This document shows positions 422 to 59,684 of a stretch of 64,000 nucleotides of DNA, in pieces. Source of the stretch: Bilabrum cf. latius (Eukaryota); assembly GCA_965178125.1 (NCBI GenBank), contig OZ237748.1, positions 1,054,001 through 1,118,000 of the forward strand. Direction: 5' to 3'. Position 1 is the stretch's first letter; every line of letters begins with the position of its first letter. Below the pieces are notes generated by a model, which saw nothing but the letters and a program-made list of their open reading frames with translations, was not told where the DNA came from and did no database searches. A program made the position numbers and the translations under genes.

Positions 422-2246
422 TCAACGCCACATGCCCAAGTCCGCGCCCTGATCCTTCAGCAACGCCTCGCATTCAACGTGCCCACCCCGTACAGCCGCT
501 TCCAAAGCTGTCACATACTCACCAGCATCACCTAAATCACCCGCCAGCAAACAACCCTTCCGATGATGCCCGCCAGCCAGCTTGCCTAATCGCAGACGCT
601 TGGCCAGTTCCAGAGGCCTCCCCTCGCTCGCTGCTTTAAACACCAGTGCTACATCCCTGTGCGCCTCCATCCCCTACCGCCAGCCCACCACCGCCCATAT
701 CCTATCGCGCGGATCTGGAGGTCCTTCACGAAGTGTCTCACGATCCCCTGTTGCCTTGAGGTGGTCGATGATGAGCCGGAGAAGCCGCTGGGGGTTGCCG
801 CGTGTTGATGGCAGGAGTGCTGGCACAAACGATGGTCTGTACCGGTAGCTCAATAATTTGAGATTGGCGGGCGGTTCCTGCAGCAAATGTTCAATAGAAG
901 TCCCATCATCCGATACAAAGTCTAATCTAGCACCGGCTTGCAGAAGGTGCATGAGTCCGCTGATGTCTTTGTAGATCTAGGTTAGGACCACCAGAGGGAG
1001 GCCAGACTGGGAGGGAACAGGTCAGGTAGAAACAATTGTTGAGAGGACGATCATCAGCACTGCAATCATGACGCAGCGATACATGTGGTACATACTACTT
1101 ATGTACCTTGATTCTCACTTTATCTATCCGGTCCGCCGACATGCCGTGCTTGAGCAACAGCGGTATCTTGCCTCTGAAAATCCCTGGAACATATGCTTTG
1201 GTCTTCTCAGCCACATGGCAGTCTGGATCTGCCCCTCTTGACAGCAAGATGCGCAATATTGCGCCCTTAATTGGCGGTTTACATGATGCAATTTCCAGCA
1301 AAGGGGTATCGAAGGGATTGTGCTGTGATAGAGAAAGTAGGGAAAGAGGCGCAGCGCTCGTGCAACAATAGCACGCAATTCGTTGTAACTGACAAACACA
1401 GCGCATGCCATGCGATGCTCTCACGCTGTTGTCCAGTGGAACCCCAGCATCGAGCAGCAATCTGCAAACCTTGGGGGCATCTGTTTTCTTGCCTAGTGAA
1501 CGACAATTTCGGACTATTCTGTCAGTCTGCGCTCGAGAAAGATGTTTCGTTGGCCTCAAATACATAAGACGTATGAAACTTGTTATACACGTCTGAACAC
1601 ACAGCAGGCATGAAACAATACTCCCCTAACTCACCCTCTTGCACAGGTTAAGCCCATGACGGATTTGCAGCGCCACGCCCACCGCTCGGCCCATGCTGTA
1701 CATCTCCTGCAGTCTCGAACATGAGCAAGTTACTAGATGGGAATAGTTCCATTCTCAACATTCAATTGCACAAACGAATGATCTGCACTCTCACCGGTGG
1801 GATCCCCCAGCTGTACAGCAGGCCAAGCACCGATTCAAAGACAGAATCTTCGGCACCACGCAGCCAGGCTTCCATGCTCTGTCTCACAGTCTGCTTTCAG
1901 GGAGAATGCAATTCAAAGCAGGATACCAACGTGCAGAGCTTCATCATCAAATGCAAGAATGCTCTTGCGATTCGGATTCACCCAGTGCGTGAAGTCAACT
2001 CCTGCCTCTCGGCAGACTTCCCAGTACGAAAGGGGCAGGTCTTTGCCACGCAAAAACTTGATCGTGGACTGCGGCTTAAAACTGGGGACCAATGAATGCT
2101 AGAAATTTCGGGACACAGCAGAAAGGTATTGAATGAACGCTATGGCAACTCACTGGAGCGTATTGCAGCAGTTCATCTAGTTGGTGTCTGTGATGGCTGA
2201 CAACCTCATCAAAGCCTTTGGCGTTGAGAATATCCACCAGCTCCAT
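422..2246 (-). CDS. Ankyrin-repeat protein, tandem copy 1 (multi-exon; TAG read as Gln; 3' end approximate)
   Basis: Exons give MELVDILNAKGF..., VCRLLLDAGVPLDN, LLSRGADPDC, LLLKHGMSAD, LLQAGARLDFVSDDGTS and TALEAAVRGGHVECEALLKDQGAD (ankyrin-like). Short GT-AG introns, e.g. 2069-2153. In-frame TAG at GWR*GMEA. Confidence 0.7.
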
Positions 2247-3215
2247 AACTAGTGGTCTTACGACAAGCAATATGTCACTGGATTTGCTTTTGCAGAAATT
2301 GCATTGAAGCTGTGAGGGAACGTTCGTCAGGCTTCTATGAGAATATCTACCCATCTATGATCACACGTTGTAAAATATGGCGAGTGCTGCCCCTCAGTGC
2401 CTGATTAGCAGGCGGCTTCATCGCCGCTCAACTCTTATAGCGACCTTCCACCTTCCACATCCGGATGTGGTCGGGTGATCCGATCCCATAATCCGAGCCA
2501 CTCGTTCGTCTCACAAACGCCAGCACCTCCAGCTGCCCAGCCTGTGCCTCCCCCTTCCAATCCGCCGTATCAAACCGAGGACCCCACCAATCATCTTATT
2601 TTCCATTCCTTGCTCCACCCCTTCGGTGAACTATCGCCCCCTCCCCATCTGCTCCGCTCTCGTCCCCCATACGCTCACCCTTCGTCCCCGCCGCTCCTGC
2701 TCTTCATCCCTAGCCGCTCTCTCTCTCTCACTCCGACGCATCCCTACGTCGCATCTGAGCCTGCAACTCGAGCAAGTCCTGCGACCACCGCTCCACCTCA
2801 ATCTCAAATACTGTGCTGGCCTCAACAACCAACACGCTGCCTTTGGGCGACGGGTTTCCGTAGCGTGCTGCCGGCCAGCCACAGCCCTCGTGCACAGCCC
2901 CTAGACCAGGACCCATCGCCTGACCCAGACGTGGATCCAGTGGCCCACTCGCCTAGATCGTCGAGCAGCAGCTGCAACACCATTCTCCCGCCCCAACTAT
3001 GCGAGTCTACATCCGCGTCCCCGACCTGTTCTATGGTACGCGCTACCTATCTATACATCCCCATCCATACCAGATCTGATCCAAATCTCAGAACTCCTTC
3101 GGATATCACCGCCCTTCTTTCCCACATCCCAGCCCTGTCTGTGCCACTTGTTTCTTCGAATCCACCCACCCTATCCACCATGTATTCTTCATCCCTCCTC
3201 TTCGACACTTCATAT

Positions 3216-5988: not shown

Positions 5989-7269
5989 TTACTTGGTTGA
6001 GATGGAGCAGTTGAGTACGGCTGCTAGCATGAGTTGGAACTGGGTTGAGCGGATCCCGGCAGGGATCGGGAGTGGCTAGAGGTTGGCCTGCACACTCTTC
6101 AAGTACGCTCGTACGGAGTTGGGGCTGTCCCAGCCACCAAACTGCTACAGATCCAGGATGCCAACCCCCTAGGCATGCAGAGCCGAGGCCGCCGTACCAC
6201 GAAGAGAGTGACCTGTGACAGAGGAATGCCCAGTGGCCGCCTGCATCTCCCGCGCCACCCGCGCCGCCGACAACCCCGAGAACACGTGAGGACTGCCGGA
6301 ACCATCCACAGGACCAGACCTCAACCACGCGTCGAGCGTCGCCGCCGAGGACGCCCCGGTACGGCGCCGGAGCCACTCGAGGAAGACTCGGAGGCCGCAC
6401 GTGCGGGCCCCGACAAGCCCATGCCTGCCCCACTCCAAGGGGAGGGCCGCCGCGACGGAGACGACCCGACTCCGCCGGCTCTTGTTGGTCCGGAGCCGTG
6501 CTGTGAAGCTGAGGATCCGACCGGCCTCGTCACACGTGAGCTGACAGAACCCCCGACAGATACCCCGGCTGGCATCGGACGGGTCGACCGGAACAAGCTC
6601 GCCCAACCGGAAGCCCCCTGCCCAGCAGAGGCCAGCGGCGGCCCGGGCCGCGCTCCAGGTGTCGCCGGCGAACCACTCGCCCAGGGCCCGGAGTGGGATG
6701 AGCGCCTTGGAGACGAGCTCCGAACCCGGACCAGCGAGGGGCCGACGCTTGGACTACCCGATCTGGAGGAGCGCTGTGGAGAGCCACGAGGGCATGCCCC
6801 GCTCGAAGCGCCCGGCAACCGCGTGGACGCGCCAGGCATTCCTGACGTAGGTCCCCATCGAGGACCCCTGGAGCTCTGGGTCCTTCTTGTCGAGCCAGAG
6901 GGCCCACCACTGGCAGAGGACCCCGAGTGACTGAGGGCCACCCTGCCAGATGCCGCCCGCGTCGAAGCTGCAGGAACCGCCGCTGAACCCGGAGCCGGCC
7001 GCAATGGACCGGAGCTCCTCACGTTGGTCGGCGCTGAGGGCACCGAAGAAGTCACGGAGCCGGCGCCAGCCTAGGCGGAGGTTGGAGAACCCGGATCGGC
7101 CACCGCCGCCAAGGACACGCCGCGCTACAGCACCAGCCAAATCGGCCACGGACAGATCTGCCGGTGAGCGGGCTGCCCCAATCTTGTCATCGAAGCTGTC
7201 CTCTGCTTGGAGGAAAGCTGGGACATCCGGCTCAGGCGGTCGGCGAGCTGATTGAACCGGGACGGACAA
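5989..7269 (-). CDS. Tyrosine recombinase of family-1 element (TAG read-through)
   Basis: One frame ending at TAA 5989 if TAG is sense. Motifs GGFRLGEL and GHSLRGTAASALHA*GVGILDL*QFGGWDSPNSVRAYL (R..HxxR..W..Y). Confidence 0.85.
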
Positions 7270-8668
7270 TGCTGCGGGTAGATGGCGAAGTCGAGCAGAG
7301 CTGAATGACGGAGTGCGTGATGCAACAAGGCATTCATGCGCTCCGAGTCAGATCTACCTTTCCTGAGGGCCTTCACGGCAGCCGACGAGTCTGAGTGCAC
7401 CTCCACGATCCGGTTCCGCAGGCGAGAGCCCCACACCTCCACCGCCATCACAGCCACGGCCAGCTCCGCAGCAGGCATATCCCCCGGGCCCAGAGTCACA
7501 GCCCAAGTCCCGTAAAAGCAGGCCGCCACCGCCCGCCGCCGCCCGTGACGCAAGACAGCGCCGAACCCTGTGGTCGACGCGTCACACCACACCGAGAAGT
7601 CTCTGTCGACATCGAACCGGCGAGGGAAGCTGCGACCCGGGTTAGCAGCGATCACCTCCCGCACGAGCCGAAGGGAAGGCACGACCGATGGAGGAACCGC
7701 CACCCGTTGCACCAGCCGCCCCTGACGCCGTAACGGGAGGTACAGCGATAACAGGGGGGCCAACAAGGGCCGCAGCACCCACAACGCATCTGCCGCGTGC
7801 AGGAGCCGACCGGTGACAACCTCCACCTCGCGGCCGACAGTCACCGACCCCGGAGTGAGCAAGGTGTCCAAAGTCTCCAACAACTGCGCCTGCTTGTGTG
7901 CCGTCAGGGAGACCCGCATGGCCTCACCATCCACATGATATCCCACGAACTCGGTAGACGGGCTCAGATCCTGCGTCCGAGCCTTTGACACGGACACCCG
8001 CAGGCCCAACGCCTCGGAGTCATGGTGCAGACGAGCCAGAAGCCAATCCGCGTGCCGGGTGATACAGATGACCGCGCAGTCGTCAACGTAGGTACCCATG
8101 TCACACAGCTGTTGTGGAGTCACTTCCCGCAGCCGATCCCGGAAGGCCTGATGGAAGCCCCGGCCTAGGGTGCACGCAAATGCAGGACTCGAGCGCGAAC
8201 CCATGGAGGCGGTCACGTCTATCATCGCGACCTGGCCAAACGAACCCCAGACCGCCCCCGCCTCAGTGAGGTCGGTGGGGAGCAACCGAAAGAACTTGCT
8301 CCAGTCCAGCACGAACAACGTGAACTCAGCCGGCTCACCCCGCCGCAGGCACGCCGCCTCCATGGCCCGGAGCTTGAAACCCGAGCACGTCGATGCGGTC
8401 CATGACAGCCTCCGCGTACGGCTCCGGGTTGATCTGCCGATTGGGGCCCTGCCGCAGACCCGAGGAGTCAAATGCCGACATGTCCGTGATGCTCCGGGAA
8501 CCAGCACCGTGGGCCTTGGGGATCATGATGGTACGACTCGCGCGGCAGCGAGGAGCCACCGCCCCGGGCACCGCGATCCGCCACCCGCGGCCAAGGGCCA
8601 GACCGCCTTCAAGGAGCTGTTCCCCTGACGCGCTGCCGGAACCACCATGGGCCGGGACCGGAGCAGCT
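7125..8668 (-). pseudogene. Reverse transcriptase/RNase H, 5'-truncated with a frameshift near 8380
   Basis: LDWSKFF, SMGSRSSP, YVDD, FVGY, WCDASTTGFGA, SDS and NQLADRLSR motifs. The upstream MIPK...ITDMS segment is in another frame. Confidence 0.8.
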
Positions 8669-46312: not shown

Positions 46313-46930
46313 ATGTCAGTGTCAACTGCTGTAATGGTTGCTGGGACTTTAGCCCCTTTAGCTTATACAGGAAGCAAGTGTCTATATTCTTGGTGGACGA
46401 AAGACGGAACTTAGAAACAGAAATCGTGCGTGGTTGTTCCAAAAGGAAGCGGTAAAACTACTTTATGTCGTTCCCTAGAAGCGGTGGATAAGGATACGCT
46501 AATTATTGATTTAGACGAGTGTGTAAATGCTCAAATTTCAGGACAGGAAAAGCAAAAGATGGAGAAAATGTTGGTTGACGGTGATGAAAGTACCCACCGC
46601 CTCTTTTATTATTCCCAATCAAGATTAGTGTATGAAAAAATTAAAGCGGATTGGCTCACAAAGAAATCCAGGCGTTTAATTGTTATGGTTGGTTCGTTGG
46701 AATTAGCGAAAGATTTATTTAAGGAAAGTTCAATTTTTGTGTGTGTGCCTTCTCACAGTCTTTTTGAGGAAATCCGTGAAGGGAAAAAATCGGGGGACTT
46801 ATTGTCTGTAGAACGCTCAAGAACGAATTTAATCGCTGGATTACATTAGAGTTAGTACTGTGTCTATTCATCCTTTTAGCAACTGGAGGAATTCGTCCGT
46901 AAAACATTTGGTCTTGGTTCTCGTCTTTGA
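46313..46930 (+). CDS. Second P-loop NTPase/kinase-like protein, 205 aa
   Basis: PKGSGKTT followed by LIIDLDE; hydrophobic N-terminus. Confidence 0.7.
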
Positions 46931-46956
46931 GTTTTTTAAATACAAGCCTATACTAA

Positions 46957-48237
46957 ATGGATAGTTTTTATACACTTAGTGGCGGAAAAATGAATTCTGG
47001 TTTTGTTAAGACGTACATTAGTGTCAAAGAACCAAAGAGTAAAACAACAAGGACATGGAAAAGTGAACATCCTTATTCTAAAGAAGCCCTTGAAAAAGCA
47101 ATTAAGTTTGAAGATGGTGTGCGAAGCACCCCCTCTCGGCGCAGTTAGCTGGCGCAACAGCTTAAAGATGGTGTGGGAACAAAAGGAAAACCAAAAAAGA
47201 AATCCTAGAAGAAATCCACACAATCCAACACACTTCATTAGTATTTAAAAGATGGTCCGCGAAGCCAGCTTAAAGATGGTTTGCGAAGCACCCCCTCTCG
47301 GCGCAGTTAGCTGGCGCAACAGCTTAAGGGTGGAGTAGTGTATGGGAATTCAAACGAAGTCCAGAGAACACTACAGCAATACGGGGATAGAACAATTATA
47401 GCTATGAAAGTGATTAGAACCCCCATTAGTGGCGCGATTAATCGGTTGCTTAACTGGATTACCCTTGGAAAAATGAAAAAGTTAAAAAATAAACACGGAT
47501 ATAATGATTTTTTTCACTTAGCCTTAGAGTTGAACCTTGGAGGTGGAAAAAAGATTTATCTTGAGAAGAATGAGAGGGTTAATTTGTCCTCAAGATTTTC
47601 CACCAACAAGAAAACACAAACTATGGAAGTAAATATCAATGGAAAACCTTAGAAAACAGTAAGGGAATTATATGAAACCACTTTACAGAAAATAGGAGAA
47701 TACAATTTTTATTAGTATCGTGCTTTCTCGTTGAATTGTCAAAAGTTCATTTAGGATGTTCTACGCACAAATGGGTTTTTGACACCACCCTTAAACCAAT
47801 TTATTATGTAGGATGTAGAGAGTATTGCTAAGAACGTATCGGGATTTACTAAGAGAGTGGCTAATGCTGCTACTGATGTGGCTGGTTATTTTTCCAAATG
47901 GTTTGGGAGAGGCTTAGATGATTTACCGGAAGATGTAAGAAACGCTTTAAGAAAAAATTAGGAAAAGCATAAGTAGAACACAGAAAGGGATTTTGGACAA
48001 GATTTTAAGGAAGGTTGGGATTTAGCAACTAAAACAGTTGGAAGACCAATTATGAAAGAAATCCATTCGCATACGAATGACCCAGTATCGGGTATGTATC
48101 TGGAAATATTTGGAGGTCAATGTCAGTGTGAAACAAAACGTTCAAGAGTTATGAAAATGGCGTCCATTTTAAGAGGAAAAGGAATATCCAAGAAGACAGC
48201 ACTTAAGTAGGCTTGGAAAATGTTTGCGTATGATTAA
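46957..48237 (+). CDS. 426-aa protein with a putative permuted papain-fold (PPPDE/LRAT-like) domain
   Basis: FFHLAL...YLEKNE...Y*YRAFSLNCQKFI. One frame across TAGs; TAA stop. Confidence 0.65.
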
Positions 48238-48257
48238 TTTATGATTGTGTATAGTAA

Positions 48258-48899
48258 ATGGCGGGTGTTGATGATTATACCGAAGAACAACTACATTTAC
48301 TGGCTAGTTAGCCACATCAGAGTTTGGGGAAAGACGCTAGACAAGCACTAGCAATTTTGAAAGGATTGAGGAAGCACTAGAGTATAGGGGAAAAGTACGC
48401 TAATCGTGTATATGTAAACCCTTAGGAAAGGGAAATGATGGAAATGCTCGCCGAAAAGACCGAACAAGAATTTGATACGCTAGGAATTGACAAAGATAGT
48501 GATGGTGATTATGACGTGGGTATACTAAAATTCTTATCACCATCACTACACGAGCAACACGACACAACACTTGATGATTTTAATTAGGCAATTCATAGAA
48601 AATATGCGTCAGAACGGAGAGATACTATGCGTGAATTTTTTGATGCTAGAGAGAAGGGAAACAGTTAGAAAGAACTATTATCATCGAGATAGGCTAGAGT
48701 AATGCGAATGGGTGGTGAAGTGCCTGATTGGGGCTCGAGCGAAAGAGCGAAGTAGAGTTTTAAACCACAAAAAACTGGAAAAGGGAGGCGCCGTCGGAAA
48801 AACCCAAAAGCAAAACTAGCAATGAAAATCGCTCAGTAGTTAAGAGGTAGAGGATATGGGAAAAGTGATGCTCTAAAAATTGCTTGGTAGAATGTATGA
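48258..48899 (+). CDS. Hypothetical viral protein, 213 aa, basic C-terminus
   Basis: TATAGTAAATG start context; open across TAG to TGA. Confidence 0.7.
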
Positions 48900-48940
48900 C
48901 TTAAATCTAACTCTATAGTATAATACTATAGAATACAAAA

Positions 48941-49213
48941 ATGACACTCAGTCATTCAGAAAGAAAAGAACAGGATAAGCTGTATGCCCGTGAATACTAC
49001 CGGAAAAACAAGGAAAAACTTGGAGAATAGATAAAGTGTTCCTGTGGTGGTGTATATAAGAAGTACAATAAATCACATCATTGTAGAACCAAAAAACACC
49101 TTGATTGGCTTCAAAAAGAGGAAGACACAAAAAGGGAACAAATTAATATTATGGATGAACTTGATAGTTTGCGATAGGAAATTTAGAGACTAAAGGAAAA
49201 GCAGACTATTTAA
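48941..49213 (+). CDS. C2H2 Zn-finger/Zn-ribbon protein, 90 aa
   Basis: YYRKNKEKL..IKCSCGGVYKKYNKSHHCRTKKH followed by a coiled coil. Confidence 0.75.
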
Positions 49214-49269
49214 TTCAATCTTTTCTAAACACTTTTATGCCGTTCCGCCGGTAAACTGCGGTGCTTTGG

Positions 49270-51111
49270 TCAATCTTTTCTAAAAATTTTCTTCTTACTG
49301 TGAATAATTTGACATTCACCTGATTGCTCCAACTTCATACCCCCAAGGTTCGTTGATAACTTTAGAGGTAATTCTTTCTCACTAATGAAACCATCCGTGT
49401 TGACATAGTGAATGTTTTCAAGATATGGCTCAATCATTTTGGACAATTTACTTCGTCCAAGTCCAGTCAGAAAGGGGCCCATTCTTGCGTAGGCTGTTTT
49501 GTAATCGTACTCTTCGTCATATAGTATACCCGATACAAGTCGTCCAGATGCTTTAGGATAGGCGTTCTTTAATTGTCTAAAATTCATACAATCACCATCT
49601 CGGAGTGTTTTTGTGATTGTGTTTTTCTAACATAGAGAACCCCAAATATTATTTAGTATCTCCTTCGCACACTTCAATCCCTATTTTTTATAACCGTACA
49701 ATCGCTCAATCATCGTTTTGAACAGTCCATTTGCCTTCACCCTTGTTGTCTCATCGTAAAGTAAAGCGTTGGCTTCACCGTCTTCAATCAGAGACACCTA
49801 AGCGCCCGTCTCAATCGCTCGGTTAATGTCATATTGGGTATAATAATTGTTTTTTCTTTTTTGTACTAATTTAGAATTGAGATTTTCAATATGTACCCTA
49901 AAAATGCCGTACGGATAGAACCCACTGGATGGTACTTTAAATTGTACGAACTTACCCCTTCTAACCGGAAATGTAAATGTACCCTTCATAATACTTGGAT
50001 AAAATGAGTTAATATCGTACTGGTATGCGTTTTTCAATGTAGTATTCTTGTTTGCCCAATTCAATCCACCACCTGATGCTCTTGAAATCCATAGTGCTTC
50101 AACTTGGTCAATCGGGTCGGCAGGGTAAAGTTTGGAAAACTTACTGAAATACGACTTTACAAATAGGGATGTTCTAAACATAAATCGTGATAAATCCATA
50201 TATCCACCCGTCTCCTTCGCTAATGCCCTTACATTTTTCATCCGTTCTTCGTGTTTTGTTCTTAGTTCTTCCTTGGACTTGACTTCAAAGATGAATTTAT
50301 CCTTGGAAACTGATGTAATGCCTTCTGATTGATACTCACGGTCTCCATCAAATAGTAAATAAGAATTCTCGGATTGATACAAGCGGGTAATTAGCGTACA
50401 CGGTTCTTTAGACGGCGGTGTAAATAATTCTTTCTAACTAATGGGGGGAACATACTTGTAATGCCCATTTGTTAATGATACAGTTAGAAGACGGTCAAAA
50501 TGAGTTTTTCCAGATGTGTATTCAAAGTCGCCCACAACGTTAATACGTATTTCTAGTTCGTCTTCTATCTCTGGTATTCTTCTGTAATCAACGGGGTCAT
50601 CACGCCCAATTTTCAAGAATTCTTTCAGGTCGGACTATGACATTCTTTTAATAGTAGTTTTCCATTTGCCTTTTGCGTTCTTTACATTTACCTTACGACC
50701 AACTGAAAAAGGAAAAGCCTGTTTTATAGCGTTATATAAACAATCGTTATGTTCGTCAGCACCGCCTTCTGGTTCTGGCTTTCTAATAAGCAGTAGTTCA
50801 AAAGAATTCAATTTTCTATATTCGTCGTCATCGTCGTCTTCGTAGCCCGCCCATAAACTATCTTGATTTTCTAAATCATCTGTAGTAATCCAAGTGCTTC
50901 GTGTTCGCCAACCTGTATCTTGGTAATTGATATTCACCTTAAATTTAAAGTCATCAAACGGATTTTCACCACCATCGTCGTAATCACGAATAAATTCCAA
51001 GACATTTTTTACGGTGATAAGGTCCTCGCTCTCAAATCGCATACTCCATATTGGTTTCCCATTAAGACGCAATTTGGTTCTTTGGGGTTCCGTAAAATCG
51101 ATTTCGGGCAT
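49270..51111 (-). CDS. polB: Protein-primed family B DNA polymerase, 613 aa
   Basis: Four ORF pieces in one frame split by TAG. Motifs YDINSFYPS, KEILNNIWG and YVNTDGF. Confidence 0.92.
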
Positions 51112-51130
51112 TCTATAGTATCTATTATAT

Positions 51131-51162
51131 TATAGAATACGATAATTATTCTTAAGGTACGA
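51131..51162 (-). promoter_or_regulatory. Bipartite putative promoter upstream of pPolB
   Basis: TCGTACCTTAAG-N9-CGTATTCTATA. Confidence 0.7.
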
Positions 51163-51168
51163 ACTCAC

Positions 51169-52830
51169 TCACTTCTCAATTTTACAGAGGAATTTGGAAA
51201 GTTTTCCTTTTTTGTTCTTTGGTGGGTTCTCTTTTATCCATTTTTGAATAGCGATGCTATTCTCAACACTCAGCTGTTTCTGGATTTTCTTATGGACTTG
51301 TTCCGTCGGTGTAATCTCCTTTTCTAATTCCAACTATTCAATCGTTTCCTACTGCTATGCGACTTGTTTCTGTAGTTCTCTAATCTACTCTCGAAGAACA
51401 TCTACCTCGGATTTTGCTTTTTCCATCTCAGCAGAATGACGAAGTGCCTAAAATTTAGATTGGAAGCCTTTTAGTAAGTCTGCGTGTTTCACATTAAATT
51501 CTTGTTTTCTCTATTTGTTCATCGTTGAATGAACACCTACCTCTGACAATAGTGTTTTAATCATAGGTGTACCAAGGTTCTTCACTCTACCGTTCAGTTC
51601 CTGCTTTAGATAATTGCGGAATTCCAAGACTGTCATTTTAAAATCTCTGCCTTCGTCCAGCCACTCTTCTTTTAGAATTTTTAAAACCGGATGTGCGCCA
51701 TCAAGAATTCCTTTGTAAAAATTCTTTGATTTTGGTGCGAATTGTCCTGTAAAGTCTGGTGATGTATCATAGATTTCAACCAATAACATATAAAATGCCT
51801 TAGCCACTTCTGGATTTTCTGTAAAACGTTTTAGTGTTGTAAAGTATTCTTTGTCTCCTTTCTTAGATGTATTCACATCCAAAACACAATATCTACGGAT
51901 TTCCTCGGTGATTTTGATTGGACTATCATTCGTATCAATAATTAAATTGAATGTATTCGGACGACTTTCGGATTTGACAAACTTCTCATTACAGGAAAAG
52001 TGTTTTTCCGTAATAAGATTTCTTAGTGTTGCCTACATGGCGTCCCAAATAGTTGGCGAGGCTTTTGGAATTTCATTAAAATTGACTAATAGTTTCCCGT
52101 CCAGAATTGAGTTGAAGGCGTCGGGTTGAAGCATCTTGTGTGTAAGCGTCTATAGTGTGAGGGTATATCCGAGTAGTTTTCTCATAAGGAAGGTAATAAT
52201 CATCGATTTACCAGTTCCTTGTGGAGATTTCAAATATAGTGCTGTACCCAACTTCTTTCCGCCCACAATAACGTGAGCCAACCACTTCATCACAAAATCA
52301 CACTATTCTTTGTCTTCTGAAGTCCACACCTTCTGGATATGTTCGTAAATCATAGTCGCGCCTGCTTTTGCGTCTTCGGTTAAATCCTCTATGTTTCCAC
52401 AGTTTTCCCGTGTAAGTATAGGTGAACCCATAACGTTAATTGTTTGATTGTCGTAATCAACGGTAGGTGAATTGAATTTTCTTACAATCGTAAATACGTC
52501 GGTATTCTCATTTAAGAACCAGTCTCGTGCTGACCAAGTCTTTACTCTTTTGTTGCCCACAATCGCGTAAATACAGTGTCCCCCAATCAGGTAATTTTCA
52601 GTAATATTTTTATTCGTAAGGAACTACCAGACTGGTTTCTGGGGTTCGTCATCACTTATGTTATTCCGATTTAATTCAGATGCTATTAGAAAATACACCC
52701 CGCCACCTTGTTCGTGGGTGCGGTAGAAGTATTGTTTAAGGTATTGAATACATTCCTCTTGTTTTCCGGCATTACATAGGTCCATAAGGCTTTTTGACGA
52801 ATACGCTTTAGTCGGCAGAGTGAATGACAT
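51169..52830 (-). CDS. Superfamily 3 (D5-like) helicase, 553 aa
   Basis: KWLAHVI..KKLGTALYLKSPQGTGKS, FNSILDGKLLVNFNEI, NLIIDTND; coiled-coil tail. Confidence 0.88.
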
Positions 52831-52844
52831 TTTTGTTGTTGTAC

Positions 52845-52876
52845 TATAGAATACGAAAATAATCCTTAAGGTACGA
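52845..52876 (-). promoter_or_regulatory. Bipartite putative promoter upstream of the helicase
   Basis: TCGTACCTTAAG-N9-CGTATTCTATA. Confidence 0.7.
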
Positions 52877-52887
52877 TACGGGGCATC

Positions 52888-53943
52888 TCAATTTTCTATA
52901 TCCCACTCCAAAATTAAATTAGGAGCAATTTCTTGGATTTTATTCTTTGGTTCCCACGTCCAATGTTCTGGTTCTGGAAAATCTTTCCATTCTATTTGAT
53001 ATTCTGTTTCGTTCTCGGATTTTATTTTTTTTGGGAGAAAGATTGTCTGAGCATCTCGGTTATTGTCCTCATTATCAAAGTCGATAATCTGTAATTCCTC
53101 TTTTGGATAAGCCACTAAATCATCCTAATCCACAACATATAAGGGTGGTTGTCTCGGTCTTAATAATACTTTAGTTATCGTTTTGATTTCTGGATTATAG
53201 CGTAAATCTGAAGCACGGAAATTTCCGGATAATTTTTGCTGTAAATTTGTAGCCTTTCTGGGTTCTTCTAATGGTATACGAACTCTTGTACCCTCTTCCA
53301 ATATATTACAAGCGTCTCCTTTACACTACGTAAAGTCGAAGTGTTCTGGGGGTAAAGGTGGTTCTTCTATATACTTTTCTAGTTGATATTCATTATAGTT
53401 TTCAATGATGTTTGGAAGCATATCCACCCATTCTACGCTTTCATTACCTGTATTTAACTCATTAACGTTCTATAGGGTAAATATGGCTTTTCCCAACGTT
53501 TTATTTAGGTTTTCCACTAATGCCTGTTGTCGGTGGCGACCTGCTTTATTTCTTCGTACAAATACATCGGTCTCTTCTAAATATCTTTGTAAAGCGTTAA
53601 ATTCTTTTCCATTATCTATTTCCAAACGGTGCTGCGGTTTCTGGACATTACCACGATTGAAAATCTTTTTTGATGCCTTTAATACTTCGTTCTAACGCTT
53701 GGTTTTGAGCGGTTCAGCATCGGCCTACTTTGTATGTAAATCAATAGCAGTTAATGCGTATTTATAATTATTGTCGTGGGGTAATGATAATAAATCCATT
53801 TGTACCACTTGGTGAGGTTCTGGTACATTTACGTGGGGTCGATTTACTCCTTTGGGTCGTTTTGGTCGTTTCATTAAATTTACAATACGACTGTTGGGAT
53901 AAATGTTTAGGGATTGTAATATTCTTTCAAAGGCGCTACTCAT
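52888..53943 (-). CDS. Retroviral-type (rve) integrase with C-terminal chromodomain, 351 aa
   Basis: QMDLL, YALTAID, IDNGKEF and LVENLNKTL (DDE); EYQIEWKDFPEPEHWTWEP (chromodomain). Confidence 0.92.
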
Positions 53944-54008
53944 TTGCTATATAGTTGTATCATTCTCCTTACTTTTGTAAAGTAGGGAAAATAATTCTTG
54001 GGAAAAAA

Positions 54009-54248
54009 TCATTTGGTTTTGGTACTTTCGTGCCATTCAACTACAATTTGACTTAAATCTTTAGCTTCCTCAAAGTCAGCAAGCAGGTCATCGTCATCAT
54101 CATAATTAATCCAAATAATAGTCTTTGTAAATTCAAGGTACTTTTTGGCCATATCGTATGCTTCTCGTGTTGTAATAAACGGGACTGATTTAAGACATTC
54201 TTTGGTCGCCAAGATGTAATTCTCGAGTTCCTTTTGTGATTTTGCCAT
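54009..54248 (-). CDS. Hypothetical viral protein, 79 aa
   Basis: Clean ORF behind the bipartite upstream motif. Confidence 0.65.
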   Translation of the reverse strand: MAKSQKELENYILATKECLKSVPFITTREAYDMAKKYLEFTKTIIWINYDDDDDLLADFEEAKDLSQIVVEWHESTKTK

Positions 54249-54262
54249 TTATGTGGTTGTAC

Positions 54263-54294
54263 TATAGACTACGTAAGTTATGCTTAAGGTACGA
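54263..54294 (-). promoter_or_regulatory. Bipartite putative promoter upstream of the 79-aa ORF
   Basis: TCGTACCTTAAG-N9-CGTAGTCTATA. Confidence 0.7.
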
Positions 54295-54309
54295 CATTTC
54301 CACTTTAGG

Positions 54310-55324
54310 CAATCAATTTTTGTGTTTTTAATTGGAAAACAATTATAATTTGTTTTTTATTTTCCTTTTAATTTTTATGGTGGCATCATAGGAATTACAA
54401 CATTTAATTTTAATAGGGAACTTAATTTATTTTTTCTAAGTCTCTTATAATTGACCTGTAAAATTGACAAGTTTTTTGGGGACTTTTCGAAAGGGACTTA
54501 AAATACGTTTTCGTTTTCCTTTTAATTTTTATGGTGGCATCATAGGAATTACAACATTTAATTTTAATTGGAAAATATATTTATTCTTTCTAAGTCTCTT
54601 AAAATTGACCTGTAAAATCTCTCAATTTTAATCTTTGAAAAAGATATCAAAAGAGCGGAGGGCAAAGCCCGAGCATCTTGGGGGACTTTTCCAAAGGGAC
54701 TTAAAATACGTTTTCGTTTTCCTTATAATGTATCATCTCTTGGGTAATCGGTTTGGTTGCTTCGGAGAACAATTTAGTCGCTTGGGAAATCCTTGGGAAA
54801 TCCTTGGGAAATCCTTGGGAAATCCTTGGGAAATCCTTGGGAAATCCTTGGTCGGTTCATCGGTCGGTTCATCGGTCGGTTTATCGGTTTGTCGCTTGGG
54901 AACATACCTCGGTCTCTTGATAAAATACCTTGTTCTCTTGGGGAAATCCTCGGTTGGTCTCTTGGTCTCTTGGGAATTCATCCTTCCGTTCCTACAGCAA
55001 ACACAGAGATATTTTGGACACTTGGTTAATTTCTTCATTTTTTCCTACTTTACTAAAACATCTCTGTCTTTGCTGTTAGAGTTTATAAGGGGGTTAAATA
55101 TTAGAATTCTTCAATTTACCCCTACTTCGTAGGAGTAAATTTTATATCTGAAAATGGGTACATAGAGGGGTTCTATAGGGGTTCTTGGGGAACCCCCTGT
55201 GAAATCATTTAGGTTTATAGGGGAAACACTTGAGTTGCTAAATATGCCTTTAAAGGAGGGGCGAGCGTAGCGTAGCCCTCGTCCTAAACGCTTGGTGTAC
55301 CTACCACCACCTGTTGTCCCCCCC
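54310..55324 (-). repeat. Right terminal inverted repeat
   Basis: Reverse complement of 37839-38853. Confidence 0.95.
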
Positions 55325-58300
55325 GCCCGCCTTTGCGCTGGATAGCCACCTGGAATCCCTCGAGGATTTCCCCAACTGTGAAGCCACCCTTGGACACGAA
55401 GGAGGTGGGGACCCACACCTCACCTGGTCGTGACCGGCTGGCCTACTTGTGAAGGGCCCAGCCCTTGGCGTCATACAGGGGACGTAGAGCACCGCGCATA
55501 CCATAAAGTGCGCCCGACAGGAAGGACAACTTGCCGACCAAGGTCTCAAAGGTAGACAGCAGCATCCCCTTCGTCGTGAGTGCCTCGTGCAGTCTGCGCA
55601 GGACGTCGGTGGCCTTGTCCTTAGGGCACCGCACCTCGTGTTTGATCAAGTCGTAGGTGAGGCCCAAGTACTCGAACACCGGGGCTGGGGCCCCTTGCTT
55701 CAATGCTTTCGAGATGCTGACGGGGAAGTTTGTGGAGTCCAGCTGCCCCATGGCTCGAATTGCCCATGCATCGACTTCGTGATCTCCGCCGAGGCAGGCA
55801 AAGTCATCTACAAACACCTCATTTTCGACCTACCAATGGCGGGACTAGTCTTGGGCCGTCTTGACCTGTCCCGTTGTCGTGCTAGCGGCAGGCGGGGTGG
55901 ACGTTGCTGACGAGTTCGCCTGGGGCGCCTGGTCCGTCGTGCTGGATTGGGCGTTGGCGTGCTGCTGCTGCCGGCGTCGTTGCTTCTGCTTGTGTCTCCG
56001 TCCGGGTCGCATGGCCCTGCCAATGGACTGCTCCTCGAGGGCTTGGGCCAAAGCCGAACTGATCGTAGTTGCGAACGCGGGAGATGATGAGCTGCCCATA
56101 GAGAGCCTGAAGTCTTGCACGATGCGCCCGTCGGGCAGCTTGATCAGGTTGTATTGGAGATCCTCCACTGCCACCGGCAGGACCCGAAAGTACGAGGAAA
56201 TGTCGACGACGTATCCGCTGGCACGCTTGGGGCAGGATCGAACTGCTGCGGCTGCCGAGCGCAGCACGTCCATGCTGCTCGTCTGCTGCACAGGCGTGGC
56301 TGCACTGTAGTCGATGGCCTTGTTCAGACCGGTACGCTGGCCGTTCACCTTGAGTGAGGAGTCCTGAAGGAACCGTAGCTTTGTCGAGTCCTTCTTGGGG
56401 ATCACCAGCGGCCGGGCCCGGGCTGTGTCGAAATCTTTGGGTGACACGAAGTCACGCTCGCCAGCCCGCATGGAGCGCCCGATCTCGCAGGTGATCTCCC
56501 ACTTTTCTTCCGGAGACAGCTTACGGTCCTTGTTGTCTAGATCGTGCTCTTTGGGCACCTCGTCCACGATGGCTAGGGGGCAACCATAGTTCAGTGCTGC
56601 CAGTACACGCTCGACTCGTGGGAGGGCTTTGAACTCGGCAAGGGACGGGGCCTTCCTCGGTGTGCGGCCGCCAAACAGAACCTCCCGCCGAGTCCGCAGT
56701 GTTGCAGTCTAGCGAGGCACCTTGTCGAAGTACTTGCGTGGCGTGAATGCCAGCGGGTCTTCGTGAACCTTCAGGTGGATCCGCTCACGGTCCCACGTCG
56801 CAGCTGGAGCCTCCACGAATTCGCCGGGACAGTCTCTGGTACGCTGGTGATCGTCCTTTCGCTGGATGAAGTCCTCTACGGAGGGTGCTGTCGTCCCTGC
56901 CCACTCATGGCTTGGATCCGGAGCTGGATATGCCCAGTCAACGAATGCTGGAGAGATGTCCGTCCTACCTGGCAGCCTCGTGGATGACGCCGTGGGCGGC
57001 CGCTGCGGTCGCTTAGGGCGCGCTAGGGCCACCAGGACTGGGTGAAGCGCGGGCGTTGACGTGACAGGTGGTGTGGAAGCAGCACACGCGTCCGATGTGG
57101 TGGTAGTCTGCGTACGCCCCTGCGGCAGTGTTGGTGTTGGAGTGCTGGGCTGGCTCTGACGTGACGTACCTCGTGGGGGAGGGTCAGGTGAAGGCTCCTT
57201 GGACTTCCTGGTGGAACCCCCGTCCTGCCGGTCCGCACGCTGGTGCTGGCCACCTTGCTGGCCTGCACCGCCACGTCCACGGCCTCGACGGTGTCGACCT
57301 CCGCCACGATCGGTACTGGGCTGGTCGCTGTCGCCCCCACTGCGCCTGGAGCCTCCACTGCCCCCGCCTCCACTGCCCCGGCCTCCACTGCCCCCGCGGG
57401 GGTCGAAGTGACGGGACAGTGCTGCTCGACGGGACGGCGCCTGCATGTCAGCCTGGACTCCCTGTAGCAGTCCGCGCACGAGGCCAGGTTCGCCTGATCT
57501 GCATGCCTCAGTGGCCCACGGATGCAGCAATTGTAGGAGACGCATGCAGTCGCCAGAAGAGCACGAAGGAATCTCATTCCCAACAAGGTCACGAATCTCA
57601 ACGTCACAGCGTTCGCCTGTATGGCGCCAAGCATGGGAGGAGAGCATCTCAAAGGCTGAACTTCCGCGTGGTATCACACACACAGCGGCAAACACCACCT
57701 CTAGTCGGGACGCCGATGCAGATGATGCCCCGGAAGCACTAACCAAACGAAGAAAATCATTGCGAACCTGCCCCAGGGTTTTCCAATCGGGCACTAGTGA
57801 TGCTGGACACGACCACGAGCTGCTGCCCTGCGGCAACCAGGACGGCAAGGACGCCGCCGAATGCACGCAAGCAGCGCGCACGAGCACACAGCCTAAAGCA
57901 AAGGAAATAGCCGAGTAAATAGTGCATAGTAACTCGCTAGATGGCACCTACTTTTCTCGTCCGCCTGCAGCAGACGACTCCGAGTTGGACGCATCGAACT
58001 TCCCAAAACTAGCATTGCTCATCGGCAGAGCTGCATGAAGCCGGCTCGTGAACGAGAAAATAGCCGATGCAATCTTGGCTCTCGTCACGGCCTGACCAAA
58101 CAGAGCACGGGCCAGTTCTGCAGCGAAATCGCGGCCGCTAGCGTCCAAATGAAGCGCGTCAGCCTAGCAAAACCGCGGCATGAACGCGGATTGGCGAAAG
58201 ATCGAGGTCAACGTTGCCAAGAAATCATCAGAAAACCAATTCTGCATTCGAATTGCAGCGATTGAAGGTGCAGAGGCCTCACGCTACAAAATCTCCACTG

Positions 58301-59684
58301 GTTGCGAGCGAACGGCCGCGGAGTCCACTGCCGTGCCTGCGCCCGGTGAAACTGGGTCAATTGAAGACGCAGGCTGCGGTGAGGCAGAAGATGACACAGG
58401 AGGTTCACGGGGTGGCTGATGAGCGGGTGTAGCGTCGACCGGTGGCGGGGATGAGTGCATCGAGGCTGCCAGTCGGTGCGAGAAGTACCATTGTAATTCC
58501 ACGTGGGCGGAGAGGCGCGACAGCAGCTCTTCCTGGCGCAGAGTCGGAATGCTGTGCCACAGCGCAAACAGGCGTAGATGCAGAATTGTCGCTGGGTCGG
58601 CCGTTCCCCGCAGCGTCGTGGAGTGCAACACTGCCCGTTGGAGATCCCCAGGAAGGCGGCCCCAGACCGCGTCAAGCTAGCGGCTGGTGCCCGGAGTCAC
58701 GCCGGGGGAGTCGTAAGCCGGAGACACACGAGGAAGAAGAAGCTGAGGGCCTGCCGGGCCCGTTGACCGTGATGCTGCACTGCTGAGCGCCTCCGCGAGC
58801 ACTGTCGGATCGCCGAAGTCCCGAGTGCCTGGTCTACCGGGGATCATGCTCGAGGCAGGTGGAGGTTGGTGCCGCGGGGGTGAAGACGTTGAGAAGTTGG
58901 GCTGGGCGCTGCGCTGGGTATCTGCTGCTGTCCCCGGGGGCCCGCGGTTCGGGGACTCGTGCAGGTGGGCCCGCCCGCCGCGCGCGAGCGGGGCCTGCCG
59001 CGTCGTCGAAGAGCCTGGCCGCGCCCGCAAGGGCGAAATTCCGCGGCCTGTCCTGGTGGCACTCTACGCCGTTCGGTCGCGTCCAGGTGAAGCATGGATG
59101 GCGGCGCCGAAGTCGAGGCGTCCTGGTGGCCGATGCCGTCCGCTAAGAGGAGCTGTCCGCCGGCCCGTCGGTAGTGAACTCAGGGACCATGGAGACTCGA
59201 TTGAAGAAGGAGCCTCTGGAGATTGCTGAACATGATGAAGACGTACTTGTCCTGCGAGTCGCTCAGGCTGTTGCCGTCGAGGAGAGCTCGGCGATGCCGG
59301 CAGAAGCAGCCGTGCACCGAGAGTCGTTAGCGTCCCATTTGACACGAACTTGGCGAGAGCGGTGCTCTTGACAGCATTAATGGACCGTGATGCCGTGAAG
59401 GACTGCTTTGATGAGTACCTGTCGAGCAAATAGCACAGGAACCCCGCATCGTGTGCACGTTGAAGATCAAGATCTCGAGGCGCCATGGTGTCGCGCTGCA
59501 CGTTGAGACGAGCAATGAAATCCGAGAACACAGCATCATTCATACCATATCGAGTAGCTAAATCGGCCAACGTGACCGCAGGTTGGCCTACCGCGCGAGC
59601 GAACACTGCAGCTGCGGCGATCACCCTGGCGCTTCCAGGTGCCCGCGCCGCCGGGTCGATCCGATGGCTACCGGCGCTGTTCAT
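55325..59684 (-). pseudogene. gag-like + RT part of the family-3 polyprotein, disrupted by the virophage
   Basis: Seven ORF pieces in one frame separated only by TAG. Motifs VIPKKDSTKLRFLQD, VDISSYF, SMGSSSSP, FVDD and YLGL. Confidence 0.85.

What the first reader, a model, noticed from the sequence alone, without database searches (positions are those of the whole stretch)
670..59684. Genome-wide reassignment of UAG alone (to Gln) while UAA remains stop
Seen: (1) Ankyrin paralogues swap CAG and TAG at one site: VLT-Q-IY is CAG at 3813 and 35396 but TAG at 977 and 10411. (2) The GWR*GMEA TAG is kept in all four copies. (3) The protease Gln position just before the catalytic Cys (F*ADGMDIATCG) is TAG. 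(4) YR and RT ORFs of three unrelated retrotransposon families are broken by TAG and not by TAA/TGA. (5) Genes end in TAA or TGA. Known: UAA and UAG are usually reassigned together in eukaryotes; uncoupled cases such as Iotanema spirale (UAG=Gln) are rare. Inference: the host has a UAG-blind eRF1 and a tRNA-Gln(CUA).
Basis: partly seen in the sequence, partly recalled or inferred. Interest (0 to 1): 0.9.

Follow-up and report, generated by a model that had tools for sequence, protein, structure and literature searches.

The report
UAG read as glutamine, virophage included
In this stretch of a GC-rich eukaryotic genome the stop codon TAG is used as an ordinary glutamine codon while TAA and TGA still end genes, and an intact integrated virophage is written in the same altered code.

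Summary
All four named site sets are at the stated places.

- **Virophage.** A 17.5-kb AT-rich block (37839-55324) is an integrated virophage with 1015-nt terminal inverted repeats and a GCCCG target duplication. Its 11 genes open only if TAG is sense. ORFs of 200 aa or more sum to 4410 aa, against 211 (standard), 415 (TAA sense) and 211 (TGA sense). They hold 103 in-frame TAG, 0 TAA and 0 TGA in 4261 codons.
- **Amino acid.** TAG at the protease oxyanion-hole position aligns to Gln in 23 of 23 virophage homologues. Likelihood over TAG columns favours Gln.
- **Relatives.** Metagenome contigs of close relatives carry in-frame TAG too. TAG there swaps with CAA/CAG as CAA/CAG do with each other.
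- **Host side.** ORFs hold 43 TAG, 0 TAA and 0 TGA in 7695 codons. Four paralogous exons keep TAG at dN/dS 0.15-0.26.
- **TAA as stop.** A TAA terminator sits at the C-terminus shared with homologues.

Not tested: housekeeping genes, tRNA-Gln(CUA), eRF1 and peptides. This code type is already known, so this is at most a new member, with a virophage as a new twist.

The parts
37839..55324 (.). Integrated virophage, 17,486 bp, 37.3% GC, inside 56-60% GC DNA. It has 1015-nt terminal inverted repeats (37839-38853 and 54310-55324) and is flanked by a direct GCCCG on both sides.
   Evidence: Inverted repeat I2, 100% complementary. Flanks and GC content. Pfam hits to the genes.
39517..40173 (-). Virophage cysteine protease, 218 codons, 6 in-frame TAG, ends in TGA. 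TAG at 39679-39681 sits at the conserved Gln, 9 residues before the catalytic Cys.
   Evidence: tblastn to 24 IMG/VR virophage loci. His 22 of 22, Cys 23 of 23, and Gln opposite the TAG 23 of 23 among HSPs that cover each column.
40163..41146 (+). Packaging ATPase, 9 in-frame TAG, ends in TAA.
   Evidence: AAA-type Pfam hits. The TAA lies within 8 codons of the homologue's own stop in 13 of 14 loci, and exactly at it in 6 of 14.
43123..44382 (+). Penton (minor capsid) protein. 15 in-frame TAG after the first ATG (17 from stop to stop). Ends in TGA.
   Evidence: Pfam PF21507 Sputnik V18/19, E 7e-9. Codon counts.
44470..46257 (+). Major capsid protein, 15 in-frame TAG, 0 TAA, 0 TGA, ends in TGA.
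   Evidence: Pfam PF21915 (E 8e-25) and PF22031 (E 2e-27). Both ends match the homologues.
41478..42659 (+). Virophage ORF of 393 codons, 13 in-frame TAG, no family found.
   Evidence: Homologous ORFs occur in L033 and L034.
46190..48899 (+). Three further virophage ORFs: 46190-46930, 46957-48237 (ends in TAA) and 48258-48899. They carry 4, 11 and 9 in-frame TAG after the first ATG.
   Evidence: Homologous ORFs occur in L033 and L034.
49270..51129 (-). Protein-primed family B DNA polymerase, 5 in-frame TAG.
   Evidence: Pfam PF03175, E 3e-5, below the curated cut-off. 60% identical to an ORF of L034.
51169..52887 (-). Primase-helicase-like protein (DUF5906 / VapE-like), 10 in-frame TAG.
   Evidence: Pfam PF19263, E 4e-15.
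52888..54036 (-). rve integrase with a chromodomain, 6 in-frame TAG.
   Evidence: Pfam PF00665 (E 2e-9) and PF00385 (E 7e-6).
425..1021 (-). The other copies are 3261-3857, 9859-10455 and 34844-35440. Codon 15 reads TAG, CAG, TAG, CAG across the copies. Codon 116 is TAG in all four.
   Evidence: dN/dS is 0.15-0.26 in all 6 pairs, with dS 0.13-0.20. No Pfam family was found.
5989..8522 (-). Retroelement family 1: an RT/RNase H ORF (6321-8522, 2 TAG) and a tyrosine-recombinase ORF (5989-7347, 4 TAG, ends in TAA).
   Evidence: Pfam PF17917 and PF00589. Codon counts.
21450..23402 (+). Host-like ORF with two WW domains, 650 codons, one in-frame TAG at 22038-22040, ends in TGA.
   Evidence: Pfam PF00397, E 5e-17. 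TAG position.
24006..26350 (+). Spliced host gene. A GT..AG intron at 24535-24693 is removed in contigs of three runs. Three in-frame TAG at 25277, 26102 and 26180. Ends in TGA.
   Evidence: Joint 24534>24694 in X5, X7 and X9, not in X1. Splice-site letters.
27127..33119 (-). Retroelement family 2: ORF 30957-33119 (4 TAG), RT/RNase H ORF 27975-30956 (7 TAG) and tyrosine-recombinase ORF 27127-28413 (1 TAG, ends in TAA).
   Evidence: Pfam PF00078 and PF00589. Codon counts.
36240..37838 (-). 3' part of the retroelement family 3 copy that the virophage split: RNase H and tyrosine-recombinase ORFs.
   Evidence: Pfam PF13456 and a weak PF00589 hit. The GRSFP motif resumes right after the repeat.
55325..59711 (-). 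5' part of the same family 3 copy: 1462 codons, 9 in-frame TAG, 0 TAA, 0 TGA. A near-identical inverted copy lies at 60167-64000 (+).
   Evidence: Inverted repeat I1, 4017 nt.

Best explanation
The organism reads UAG as glutamine, and UAA and UGA remain its terminators. This is the table-15 type of nuclear code.

Shown here:
- TAG sits in frame in intact coding sequences of three kinds: host-like genes, three retroelement families and an integrated virophage. These sequences are constrained and have homologues.
- TAA and TGA never sit in frame in them, and they end the genes.
- The residue that best fits TAG columns is Gln.
- Related virophages from metagenomes share the habit.

Inferred from established knowledge of such codes (passages of PMC5304391):
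- A tRNA-Gln with anticodon CUA pairs with UAG but not with UAA.
- The eRF1 has lost recognition of UAG and kept UAA and UGA.
- A glutaminyl-tRNA synthetase accepts that tRNA.

Also inferred: under AT-biased mutation CAG drifts to TAG without cost. That would explain why TAG makes up 41% of Gln-type codons in the 37% GC virophage but 11% in the GC-rich ORFs.
For: **Virophage interior (38854-54310).** ORFs of 200 aa or more sum to 4410 aa under TAG sense, against 211 (standard code), 415 (TAA sense) and 211 (TGA sense). There are 103 TAG, 0 TAA and 0 TGA in 4261 codons. The two off-frames carry all three stop triplets freely. Terminators are TGA 9 and TAA 2.

**Protease.** The TAG aligns to Gln in 23 of 23 homologues, beside conserved His and Cys.

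**Distant virophages (30 IMG/VR loci).** 51 of 106 TAG sites were covered.
- Gln is 12.3% of aligned residues, against 4.3% background and 17.3% at CAA/CAG sites.
- Gln is the best-fitting residue, ahead of Glu by 54 nats pooled and 3.5 nats averaged per site.

**Close relatives (L033, L034).** Of 140 pairs with a window TAG, 35 are CAA/CAG and 17 are TAG. For window CAA/CAG, 50 of 184 pairs are Gln and 13 are TAG.

**Relatives' own code.** Their contigs open only under TAG sense, with 3-6 TAG in the MCP gene.

**Host side.** 43 TAG, 0 TAA and 0 TGA in 7695 codons. The two off-frames together hold 90, 26 and 254.

**Paralogous exons.** dN/dS is 0.15-0.26. One TAG is kept in 4 of 4 copies, and one site alternates TAG and CAG.

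**Retroelement TAG columns.** Gln is 12.4%, against 3.5% background and 12.1% at CAA/CAG columns.

**TAA as stop.** The ATPase TAA coincides with the homologues' ends.
Against: - No housekeeping gene lies in the window, so 'genome-wide' is extrapolated.
- No tRNA gene is in the window or in five related contigs, and no eRF1 could be examined.
- At MCP residue 181 the TAG aligns to Tyr or Phe in 5 of 5 non-identical homologues and to TAT in L031 and L033.
- In the retroelement columns, the pooled likelihood ranks His close behind Gln (38.2 against 48.8).
- ORFs were defined by TAA and TGA, so a TAG that ends a gene could not be seen directly. In the MCP gene a TAG lies two codons before the TGA.
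- Whether TAG survives unchanged in RNA was not shown site by site.
- The window differs from four runs by single-base indels at 23420, 24006, 24163 and 24753, so it may hold some base errors.
Confidence: 0.85

Rival explanations
1. The TAGs are damage. Repeated DNA decayed by C-to-T mutation (RIP-like or deamination), turning CAG into TAG in dead copies.
For: - CAG and TAG differ by one C/T transition, and the site alternates between paralogues.
- Most TAG-bearing ORFs belong to repeats.
- An AT-rich block lies within GC-rich DNA.
Against: - The same process would also make TAA from CAA and TGA or TAG from TGG. Yet there are 0 TAA and 0 TGA among 11,956 in-frame codons.
- The paralogous exons have dN/dS 0.15-0.26.
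- The AT-rich block is a virophage with 100% identical inverted repeats and 11 whole genes.
- Its relatives elsewhere carry TAG too.
Confidence: 0.02
2. Both UAA and UAG mean glutamine (the table-6 type). TAA is merely rare because the genome is GC-rich.
For: - TGA is the commonest terminator: 9 of 11 virophage genes and 10 of 12 host-side ORFs with a readable terminator.
- The coupled change is the usual one in eukaryotes (abstract of PMC5304391).
Against: - In the 37% GC virophage, CAA outnumbers CAG 107 to 43 and TAG occurs 103 times, yet TAA occurs 0 times in frame.
- The MCP gene, whose two ends are fixed by homologues, has 15 TAG and 0 TAA.
- The ATPase TAA sits at the homologues' C-terminus.
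- In the related contigs TAA is the terminator of 17 of 27 ORFs of 200 aa or more. That list includes overlapping, possibly spurious ORFs, and genes shared by L032 and L034.
Confidence: 0.03
3. TAG is sense but stands for another residue, such as Glu, His or Tyr.
For: - Glu is second in the virophage likelihood and His is second in the retroelement one.
- MCP site 181 aligns to Tyr or Phe.
Against: - The invariant protease Gln, 23 of 23.
- TAG exchanges with CAA/CAG at the same rate as those codons do with each other.
- Gln leads in both likelihood tests.
Confidence: 0.04
4. TAG is ambiguous. It is translated inside genes but also ends some genes, depending on context, as in codes without a dedicated stop.
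For: - ORFs were delimited by TAA and TGA, so TAG terminators would be invisible.
- A TAG lies two codons before the TGA of the MCP gene.
- Such codes exist (abstract of PMC4967479, in the listing).
Against: - In the genes whose C-termini could be anchored on homologues (protease, ATPase, penton, MCP), the end coincides with TGA or TAA.
- 146 internal TAGs show efficient reading.
Confidence: 0.05
5. Only mobile and viral genes are recoded, for example through a helper virus's suppressor tRNA. Ordinary host genes use the standard code.
For: - Most TAG-bearing ORFs here are mobile elements or viral.
- Recoded phages in standard-code hosts are known (abstract of 10.1101/2021.08.26.457843, in the listing).
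Against: - Three host-like gene families carry in-frame TAG: the four constrained paralogous exons, the WW-domain ORF and a gene shown spliced in contigs of three runs.
- No tRNA gene is in the virophage or its relatives.
- Retroelements are translated by host ribosomes without any helper.
Confidence: 0.03

Closest known systems
UAG=Gln with UAA and UGA kept as stops: Iotanema spirale (Fornicata), Protocruzia tuzeti and two phyllopharyngean ciliate lineages (NCBI table 15 type)
   Same: TAG is sense and best fits Gln, and TAA and TGA terminate. The listed taxa come from the Discussion passages of PMC11687900 and the abstract of PMC5304391.
   Different: - Here the evidence is genomic DNA of about 60% GC with spliceosomal introns, tyrosine-recombinase retroelements and a virophage.
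- TGA is the main terminator here, whereas UAA is the primary one in I. spirale (abstract).
Ciliate macronuclear DNA seems an unlikely source of a retroelement-rich locus; that is my own judgement.
UAR=Gln codes (table 6 type): many ciliates, some ulvophyte algae, hexamitin diplomonads, oxymonads, Amoeboaphelidium protococcarum
   Same: A stop codon is read as Gln. TGA is the commonest terminator.
   Different: TAA is never in frame here (0 of 11,956 codons) and it ends genes. Amoeboaphelidium is described as reading both TAG and TAA as Gln (passage of PMC6299283).
Other UAG-only reassignments: rhizarian exLh (Leu), Scotinosphaera (Ser), some phyllopharyngeans (Leu)
   Same: UAG is uncoupled from UAA (passage of PMC11687900).
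   Different: Leu and Ser fit the TAG columns poorly. Neither is among the six best residues in the retroelement test. In the virophage test Leu is not among the best eight and Ser ranks fifth, far behind Gln.
Integrated mavirus-type virophages (the endogenous virophages of Cafeteria burkhardae)
   Same: - The four core genes (MCP, penton, ATPase, cysteine protease), plus pPolB, a helicase and an rve integrase.
- Long terminal inverted repeats.
- Lower GC than the host.
- Retrotransposons with tyrosine recombinase as neighbours.
The comparison rests on the title and abstract of PMC8547959 (listing) and on recall.
   Different: Every gene here needs TAG read as sense. In this case the virophage sits inside a retroelement, rather than the reverse.
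TAG-recoded bacteriophages (code 15 crAss-like and Lak phages)
   Same: Viral genes are full of in-frame TAG read as Gln (abstract of PMC9523058, listing).
   Different: Those phages differ in code from their hosts. Here the flanking host-side ORFs use TAG in the same way, and no suppressor tRNA is encoded.

Membership tests
Nuclear code with UAG=Gln and UAA/UGA as stops (table 15 type) | In-frame UAG in intact, constrained coding sequences | tested here: met
   103 TAG in 11 virophage genes. 43 TAG in host-side ORFs. TAG retained in exons with dN/dS 0.15-0.26.
Nuclear code with UAG=Gln and UAA/UGA as stops (table 15 type) | UAG columns are dominated by Gln in homologues | tested here: met
   Protease site 23 of 23 Gln. 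Gln is the best-fitting residue in two independent sets. Exchange with CAA/CAG in close relatives. One site (MCP 181) aligns to Tyr or Phe.
Nuclear code with UAG=Gln and UAA/UGA as stops (table 15 type) | UAA and UGA are absent in frame and used as terminators | tested here: met
   0 TAA and 0 TGA in frame. The TAA terminator of the ATPase sits at the homologues' end.
Nuclear code with UAG=Gln and UAA/UGA as stops (table 15 type) | UAG is not used as a terminator | tested here: inconclusive
   ORFs were delimited by TAA and TGA. Only four genes have ends anchored on homologues, and these end in TGA or TAA.
Nuclear code with UAG=Gln and UAA/UGA as stops (table 15 type) | The same usage in conserved housekeeping genes across the genome | not testable with these tools
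   No whole genome is held, and no housekeeping gene lies in the window.
Nuclear code with UAG=Gln and UAA/UGA as stops (table 15 type) | A tRNA-Gln with anticodon CUA | not testable with these tools
   No tRNA gene is in the window, and there is no genome to scan.
Nuclear code with UAG=Gln and UAA/UGA as stops (table 15 type) | An eRF1 altered in its stop-recognition motifs | not testable with these tools
   eRF1 is not in the window, and no genome is held.
UAR=Gln code (table 6 type) | In-frame UAA at Gln positions | tested here: not met
   0 TAA in 4261 codons of an AT-rich element that uses CAA 107 times and TAG 103 times.
Decayed repeats (RIP-like C-to-T mutation) | All stop types arise and selection is relaxed | tested here: not met
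   Only TAG occurs in frame. dN/dS is 0.15-0.26.
Virophage (MCP, penton, ATPase, cysteine protease core) | The four core morphogenetic genes are present | tested here: met
   Pfam PF21915, PF22031 and PF21507 plus AAA hits. Protease homology to 24 virophage loci.
Virophage (MCP, penton, ATPase, cysteine protease core) | Dependence on a giant virus for replication | not testable with these tools
   No giant-virus sequence is in the window. A shared motif TATAGTA just upstream of at least 6 of 11 start codons is only a lead to a viral promoter.

The most novel reading that the evidence does not exclude
This is a eukaryotic lineage outside the ciliates whose UAG=Gln / UAA=stop code has not been described. 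Its intact integrated virophage, together with a clade of TAG-sense virophages in environmental metagenomes, would be the first host-anchored evidence of a giant-virus and virophage system working entirely in a variant nuclear code. The code would then act as a barrier that defines which viruses can use this host.
Probability: 0.35. Interest if true: 0.8.

Novelty: new member of a known kind. Interest (0 to 1): 0.62.

Why it matters
**Rarity of the code type.** Uncoupling of UAG from UAA is rare. The texts I read name only one non-ciliate case of UAG=Gln, Iotanema, known from a transcriptome. A further case with genomic DNA would allow a direct search for the tRNA-Gln(CUA) and the eRF1 change that the earlier work could only predict (passage).

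**The virophage.** A 2026 catalogue states that all confirmed giant-virus isolates come from standard-code hosts (passage of PMC13524828). An intact virophage with 103 sense TAGs inside such a host, and relatives of it in metagenomes, point to a virus-host system that standard-code gene callers break into fragments.

**Practical point.** This locus is unreadable under the standard code. In the virophage the longest standard-code ORF is 211 aa, against 619 aa under TAG sense.

Tried and rejected
- **Whole-window ORF gain as a test.** Rejected, because reading TGA as sense lengthens ORFs even more in GC-rich DNA.
- **Whole genome.** None is held.
- **PDB sequence search of the protease.** It returned only spurious repeated matches of a 25-residue stretch to WD40 proteins.
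- **Pfam on the 'ankyrin' ORFs.** No family was found.
- **First metagenome scan with the single MCP protein.** It found nothing. The second scan, with an alignment, found five loci.
- **tRNA scans.** None in the window or in L031-L035.
- **Sequencing runs.** No RNA holder is listed.
- **Contigs of X5, X7 and X9 (kind only guessed).** They show the spliced form of one gene. The table of other letters was cut, with 85 rows not shown, so I cannot say site by site that TAGs are unchanged. From the counts of other letters, at least 4 of 6 TAGs are unchanged in X5 record 14 and at least 3 of 7 in X7 record 19.
- **Literature.** Searches found no report of a virophage in a variant code, and no further non-ciliate UAG-only Gln case. 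The library lacks most subscription journals, and supplements were not seen.
- **Organism name.** It could not be learned; run and organism names were coded.


Full report
**What the window is.** The window is about 54-63% GC except for a block at roughly 36-56 kb of 37-46% GC. It holds no tRNA gene, and no whole genome is held for it. It is dense in repeats:
- a 268-bp satellite with at least 21 copies (12300-17959);
- a gene family in four copies;
- three families of retroelements with reverse transcriptase and tyrosine recombinase;
- a near-perfect 4-kb inverted duplication at 55878-59894 and 59984-64000.

**Check of the observation.** All the named sites exist.
- VLT-Q-IY has CAG at 3813 and 35396 and TAG at 977 and 10411.
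- GWR-TAG-GMEA is present in four copies.
- The protease motif lies at 39649-39684, so the finding's end coordinate 59684 does not match it.
- The three element families each have an RT or RNase H ORF and a Phage_integrase-type ORF, interrupted only by TAG.
- The 'ankyrin' label is not backed by Pfam.

Over the whole window, ORF lengthening is not a fair test. Reading TGA as sense creates even more long ORFs than reading TAG as sense, because TGA is the commonest stop triplet in GC-rich DNA.

**The decisive object: an integrated virophage.** The AT-rich block is bounded by 1015-nt inverted repeats that are 100% complementary. It is flanked on both sides by GCCCG. It lies inside a family 3 retroelement, whose reading frame stops at one repeat and resumes after the other.

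Read with TAG as sense it holds 11 ORFs. Those with a recognisable family are:
- major capsid protein (Pfam E 8e-25 and 2e-27);
- penton protein;
- packaging ATPase;
- cysteine protease;
- protein-primed polymerase;
- DUF5906 helicase;
- rve integrase with a chromodomain.

Between the repeats, ORFs of 200 aa or more sum as follows:

| Code | Sum of ORFs of 200 aa or more |
|---|---|
| Standard | 211 aa |
| TAG sense | 4410 aa |
| TAA sense | 415 aa |
| TGA sense | 211 aa |

After the first ATG the 11 genes hold 103 TAG, 0 TAA and 0 TGA in 4261 codons. Their two off-frames hold all three triplets in numbers. Nine genes end in TGA and two in TAA. In DNA of 37% GC this cannot be chance, and it cannot be decay.

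**Which amino acid.** I masked TAG as X and compared the virophage proteins with 30 virophage loci from a viral-contig collection.
- 51 of 106 TAG sites were covered.
- Gln was the commonest aligned residue: 92 of 746, or 12.3%. Background was 4.3%, and columns of the window's own CAA/CAG gave 17.3%.
- With substitution frequencies learned from the same alignments, Gln fits best. Glu is next, 54 nats behind when pooled and 3.5 nats behind when each site counts once.
- One site is close to proof. The TAG nine residues before the catalytic Cys of the protease aligns to Gln in 23 of 23 homologues that cover it. His (22 of 22) and Cys (23 of 23) are likewise kept. That this Gln is the oxyanion-hole residue of this protease clan is recalled knowledge.

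A protein search gave six capsid relatives, one of them a near-identical copy. In the rest, Gln dominates the better conserved TAG columns (116, 293, 390, 424), but site 181 aligns to Tyr or Phe.

**Independent relatives.** The first metagenome scan found nothing. The second gave five contigs whose capsid genes are 49-59% identical to the window's.
- These capsid genes also carry 3-6 in-frame TAG and no TAA or TGA, and the contigs open up under TAG sense.
- I then compared L033 and L034 codon by codon with the window. I left out L032, which largely repeats L034, and did not include L031 or L035. The window's TAGs pair with CAA or CAG in 35 of 140 pairs and with TAG in 17.
- The window's CAA/CAG pair with Gln codons in 50 of 184 pairs and with TAG in 13. 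TAG therefore behaves as a third Gln codon.
- The contigs hold no tRNA gene.
- Among their ORFs of 200 aa or more, 17 end in TAA and 10 in TGA. In the 30 standard-code virophage loci the terminators are TAA 132, TAG 37 and TGA 27. The list for the relatives includes overlapping ORFs on both strands and genes shared by L032 and L034, so it is only a rough count.

**The host side.** In 14 GC-rich ORFs there are 43 TAG, 0 TAA and 0 TGA in 7695 codons. Their two off-frames together hold 90, 26 and 254. A few of these ORFs overlap one another. The 14 are:
- the RT, recombinase and gag-like ORFs of the three element families;
- four paralogous exons;
- a WW-domain ORF;
- a further ORF, at 24701-26350.

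The four paralogous exons of 199 codons differ by dS 0.13-0.20 with dN/dS 0.15-0.26 in all six pairs. They keep one TAG in all four copies and alternate TAG and CAG at another site.

For the retroelements I used 150 representatives from a library-wide search. I dropped alignments above 55% identity, which removed 3 of 150 for the main query. TAG columns hold 12.4% Gln, against 3.5% background and 12.1% at CAA/CAG columns. Gln again fits best, with His close behind.

**Is TAA a stop?** Several results say so.
- Zero in-frame TAA in an AT-rich element that prefers CAA to CAG is hard to reconcile with TAA being a Gln codon.
- The TAA that ends the ATPase gene falls within 8 codons of the homologue's own stop in 13 of 14 loci, and exactly at it in 6.
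- Two recombinase ORFs also end in TAA.
- TAA is the in-frame stop just upstream of 8 of 11 virophage ORFs.

**Transcripts.** Twenty listed runs hold part of the stretch, and none is on record as RNA. I laid contigs of four runs.
- Three runs (X5, X7, X9, kind only guessed) join 24534 to 24694 and so skip 159 bases that begin GT and end AG. X1 keeps them. The gene at 24006-26350, which has three in-frame TAGs, is therefore spliced.
- All four runs carry one more base after 24753 than the window does. That reconciles the frames of its two exons.
- Whether each TAG is unchanged in RNA could not be read, because the table was cut. The small counts of other letters per contig only exclude wholesale editing.

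**Mechanism.** Shown: TAG is translated, as Gln, and TAA and TGA terminate. Inferred from known cases (passages of PMC5304391):
- a tRNA-Gln with anticodon CUA, the only anticodon that reads UAG and ignores UAA;
- an eRF1 weakened for UAG;
- a synthetase that accepts the new anticodon.

TAG's share of Gln-type codons is 41% in the virophage (103 of 253) and 11% in the GC-rich ORFs (43 of 401). This fits a neutral CAG-to-TAG drift under AT pressure; that reading is my inference.

**Comparison and novelty.** UAG=Gln with UAA kept as a stop is a known kind. It is reported for Iotanema spirale, Protocruzia tuzeti and two phyllopharyngean lineages (passages of PMC11687900; abstract of PMC5304391). 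Amoeboaphelidium is described as reading both TAG and TAA as Gln (passage of PMC6299283), which does not fit this window.

I could not learn the organism's name, so I cannot say whether its code is already in print. My searches of the held library found no further non-ciliate case and no virophage in a variant code. A virophage survey noted an ochre-reading tRNA as a hint of host recoding (passage of PMC6905037). A 2026 giant-virus catalogue says that all confirmed isolates come from standard-code hosts (passage of PMC13524828).

**Verdict.** The reading of TAG as Gln with TAA and TGA as stops is well supported for this locus and for a clade of related virophages. The genome-wide extent and the molecular parts are still to be shown. 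I file it as a new member of a known kind of code. The integrated virophage written in that code is the most unusual element.

Noticed in passing
window 37839-55324: The virophage sits inside a retroelement ORF, between its RT and RNase H parts, with a GCCCG duplication. Its repeats are identical and all 11 genes are whole, so the insertion looks recent and possibly still active.
   Followed up: partly
window 39500-54100, the 5' ends of the virophage genes: A motif TATAGTA(A) lies directly upstream of the start codon of at least 6 of 11 virophage genes. It is a candidate promoter of the helper giant virus.
   Followed up: partly
window 12300-17959: A satellite of 268-bp units, at least 21 copies at 95-97% identity, with strong G-over-C skew.
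   Followed up: no
window 55878-59894 and 59984-64000: A near-perfect 4-kb palindrome of two retroelement copies, head to head, with 89 nt between the arms. It may be real or an assembly artefact.
   Followed up: no
window 21210-21470, 26638-26898, 33099-33359: A 261-nt sequence occurs three times, the latter two copies inverted relative to the first. Two different long ORFs (21450-23402 + and 30957-33119 -) start in it with the same residues QIVLNSF. Contigs of the runs join 26475 to 33360.
   Followed up: no
window 23420, 24006, 24163, 24753: The window differs by single-base indels from the contigs that cover these places, in two to four of the four runs. At 24753 all four differ. These are assembly errors or a divergent haplotype. 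They break the frame of the spliced gene.
   Followed up: partly
window 22250-22407: Contigs of X5 and X7 lack 156 bases here, which is one unit of a 52-residue repeat in the WW-domain ORF. This looks like a copy-number variant, not an intron.
   Followed up: no
P0004: A public protein 100% identical to 80% of the capsid protein already carries Q at the TAG sites. Some automatic gene caller therefore chose a TAG=Gln code for a 19.5-kb contig of this virophage.
   Followed up: no
window 33704-34487: A tandem array of 112-bp units lies in an ORF with repeated peptide units.
   Followed up: no
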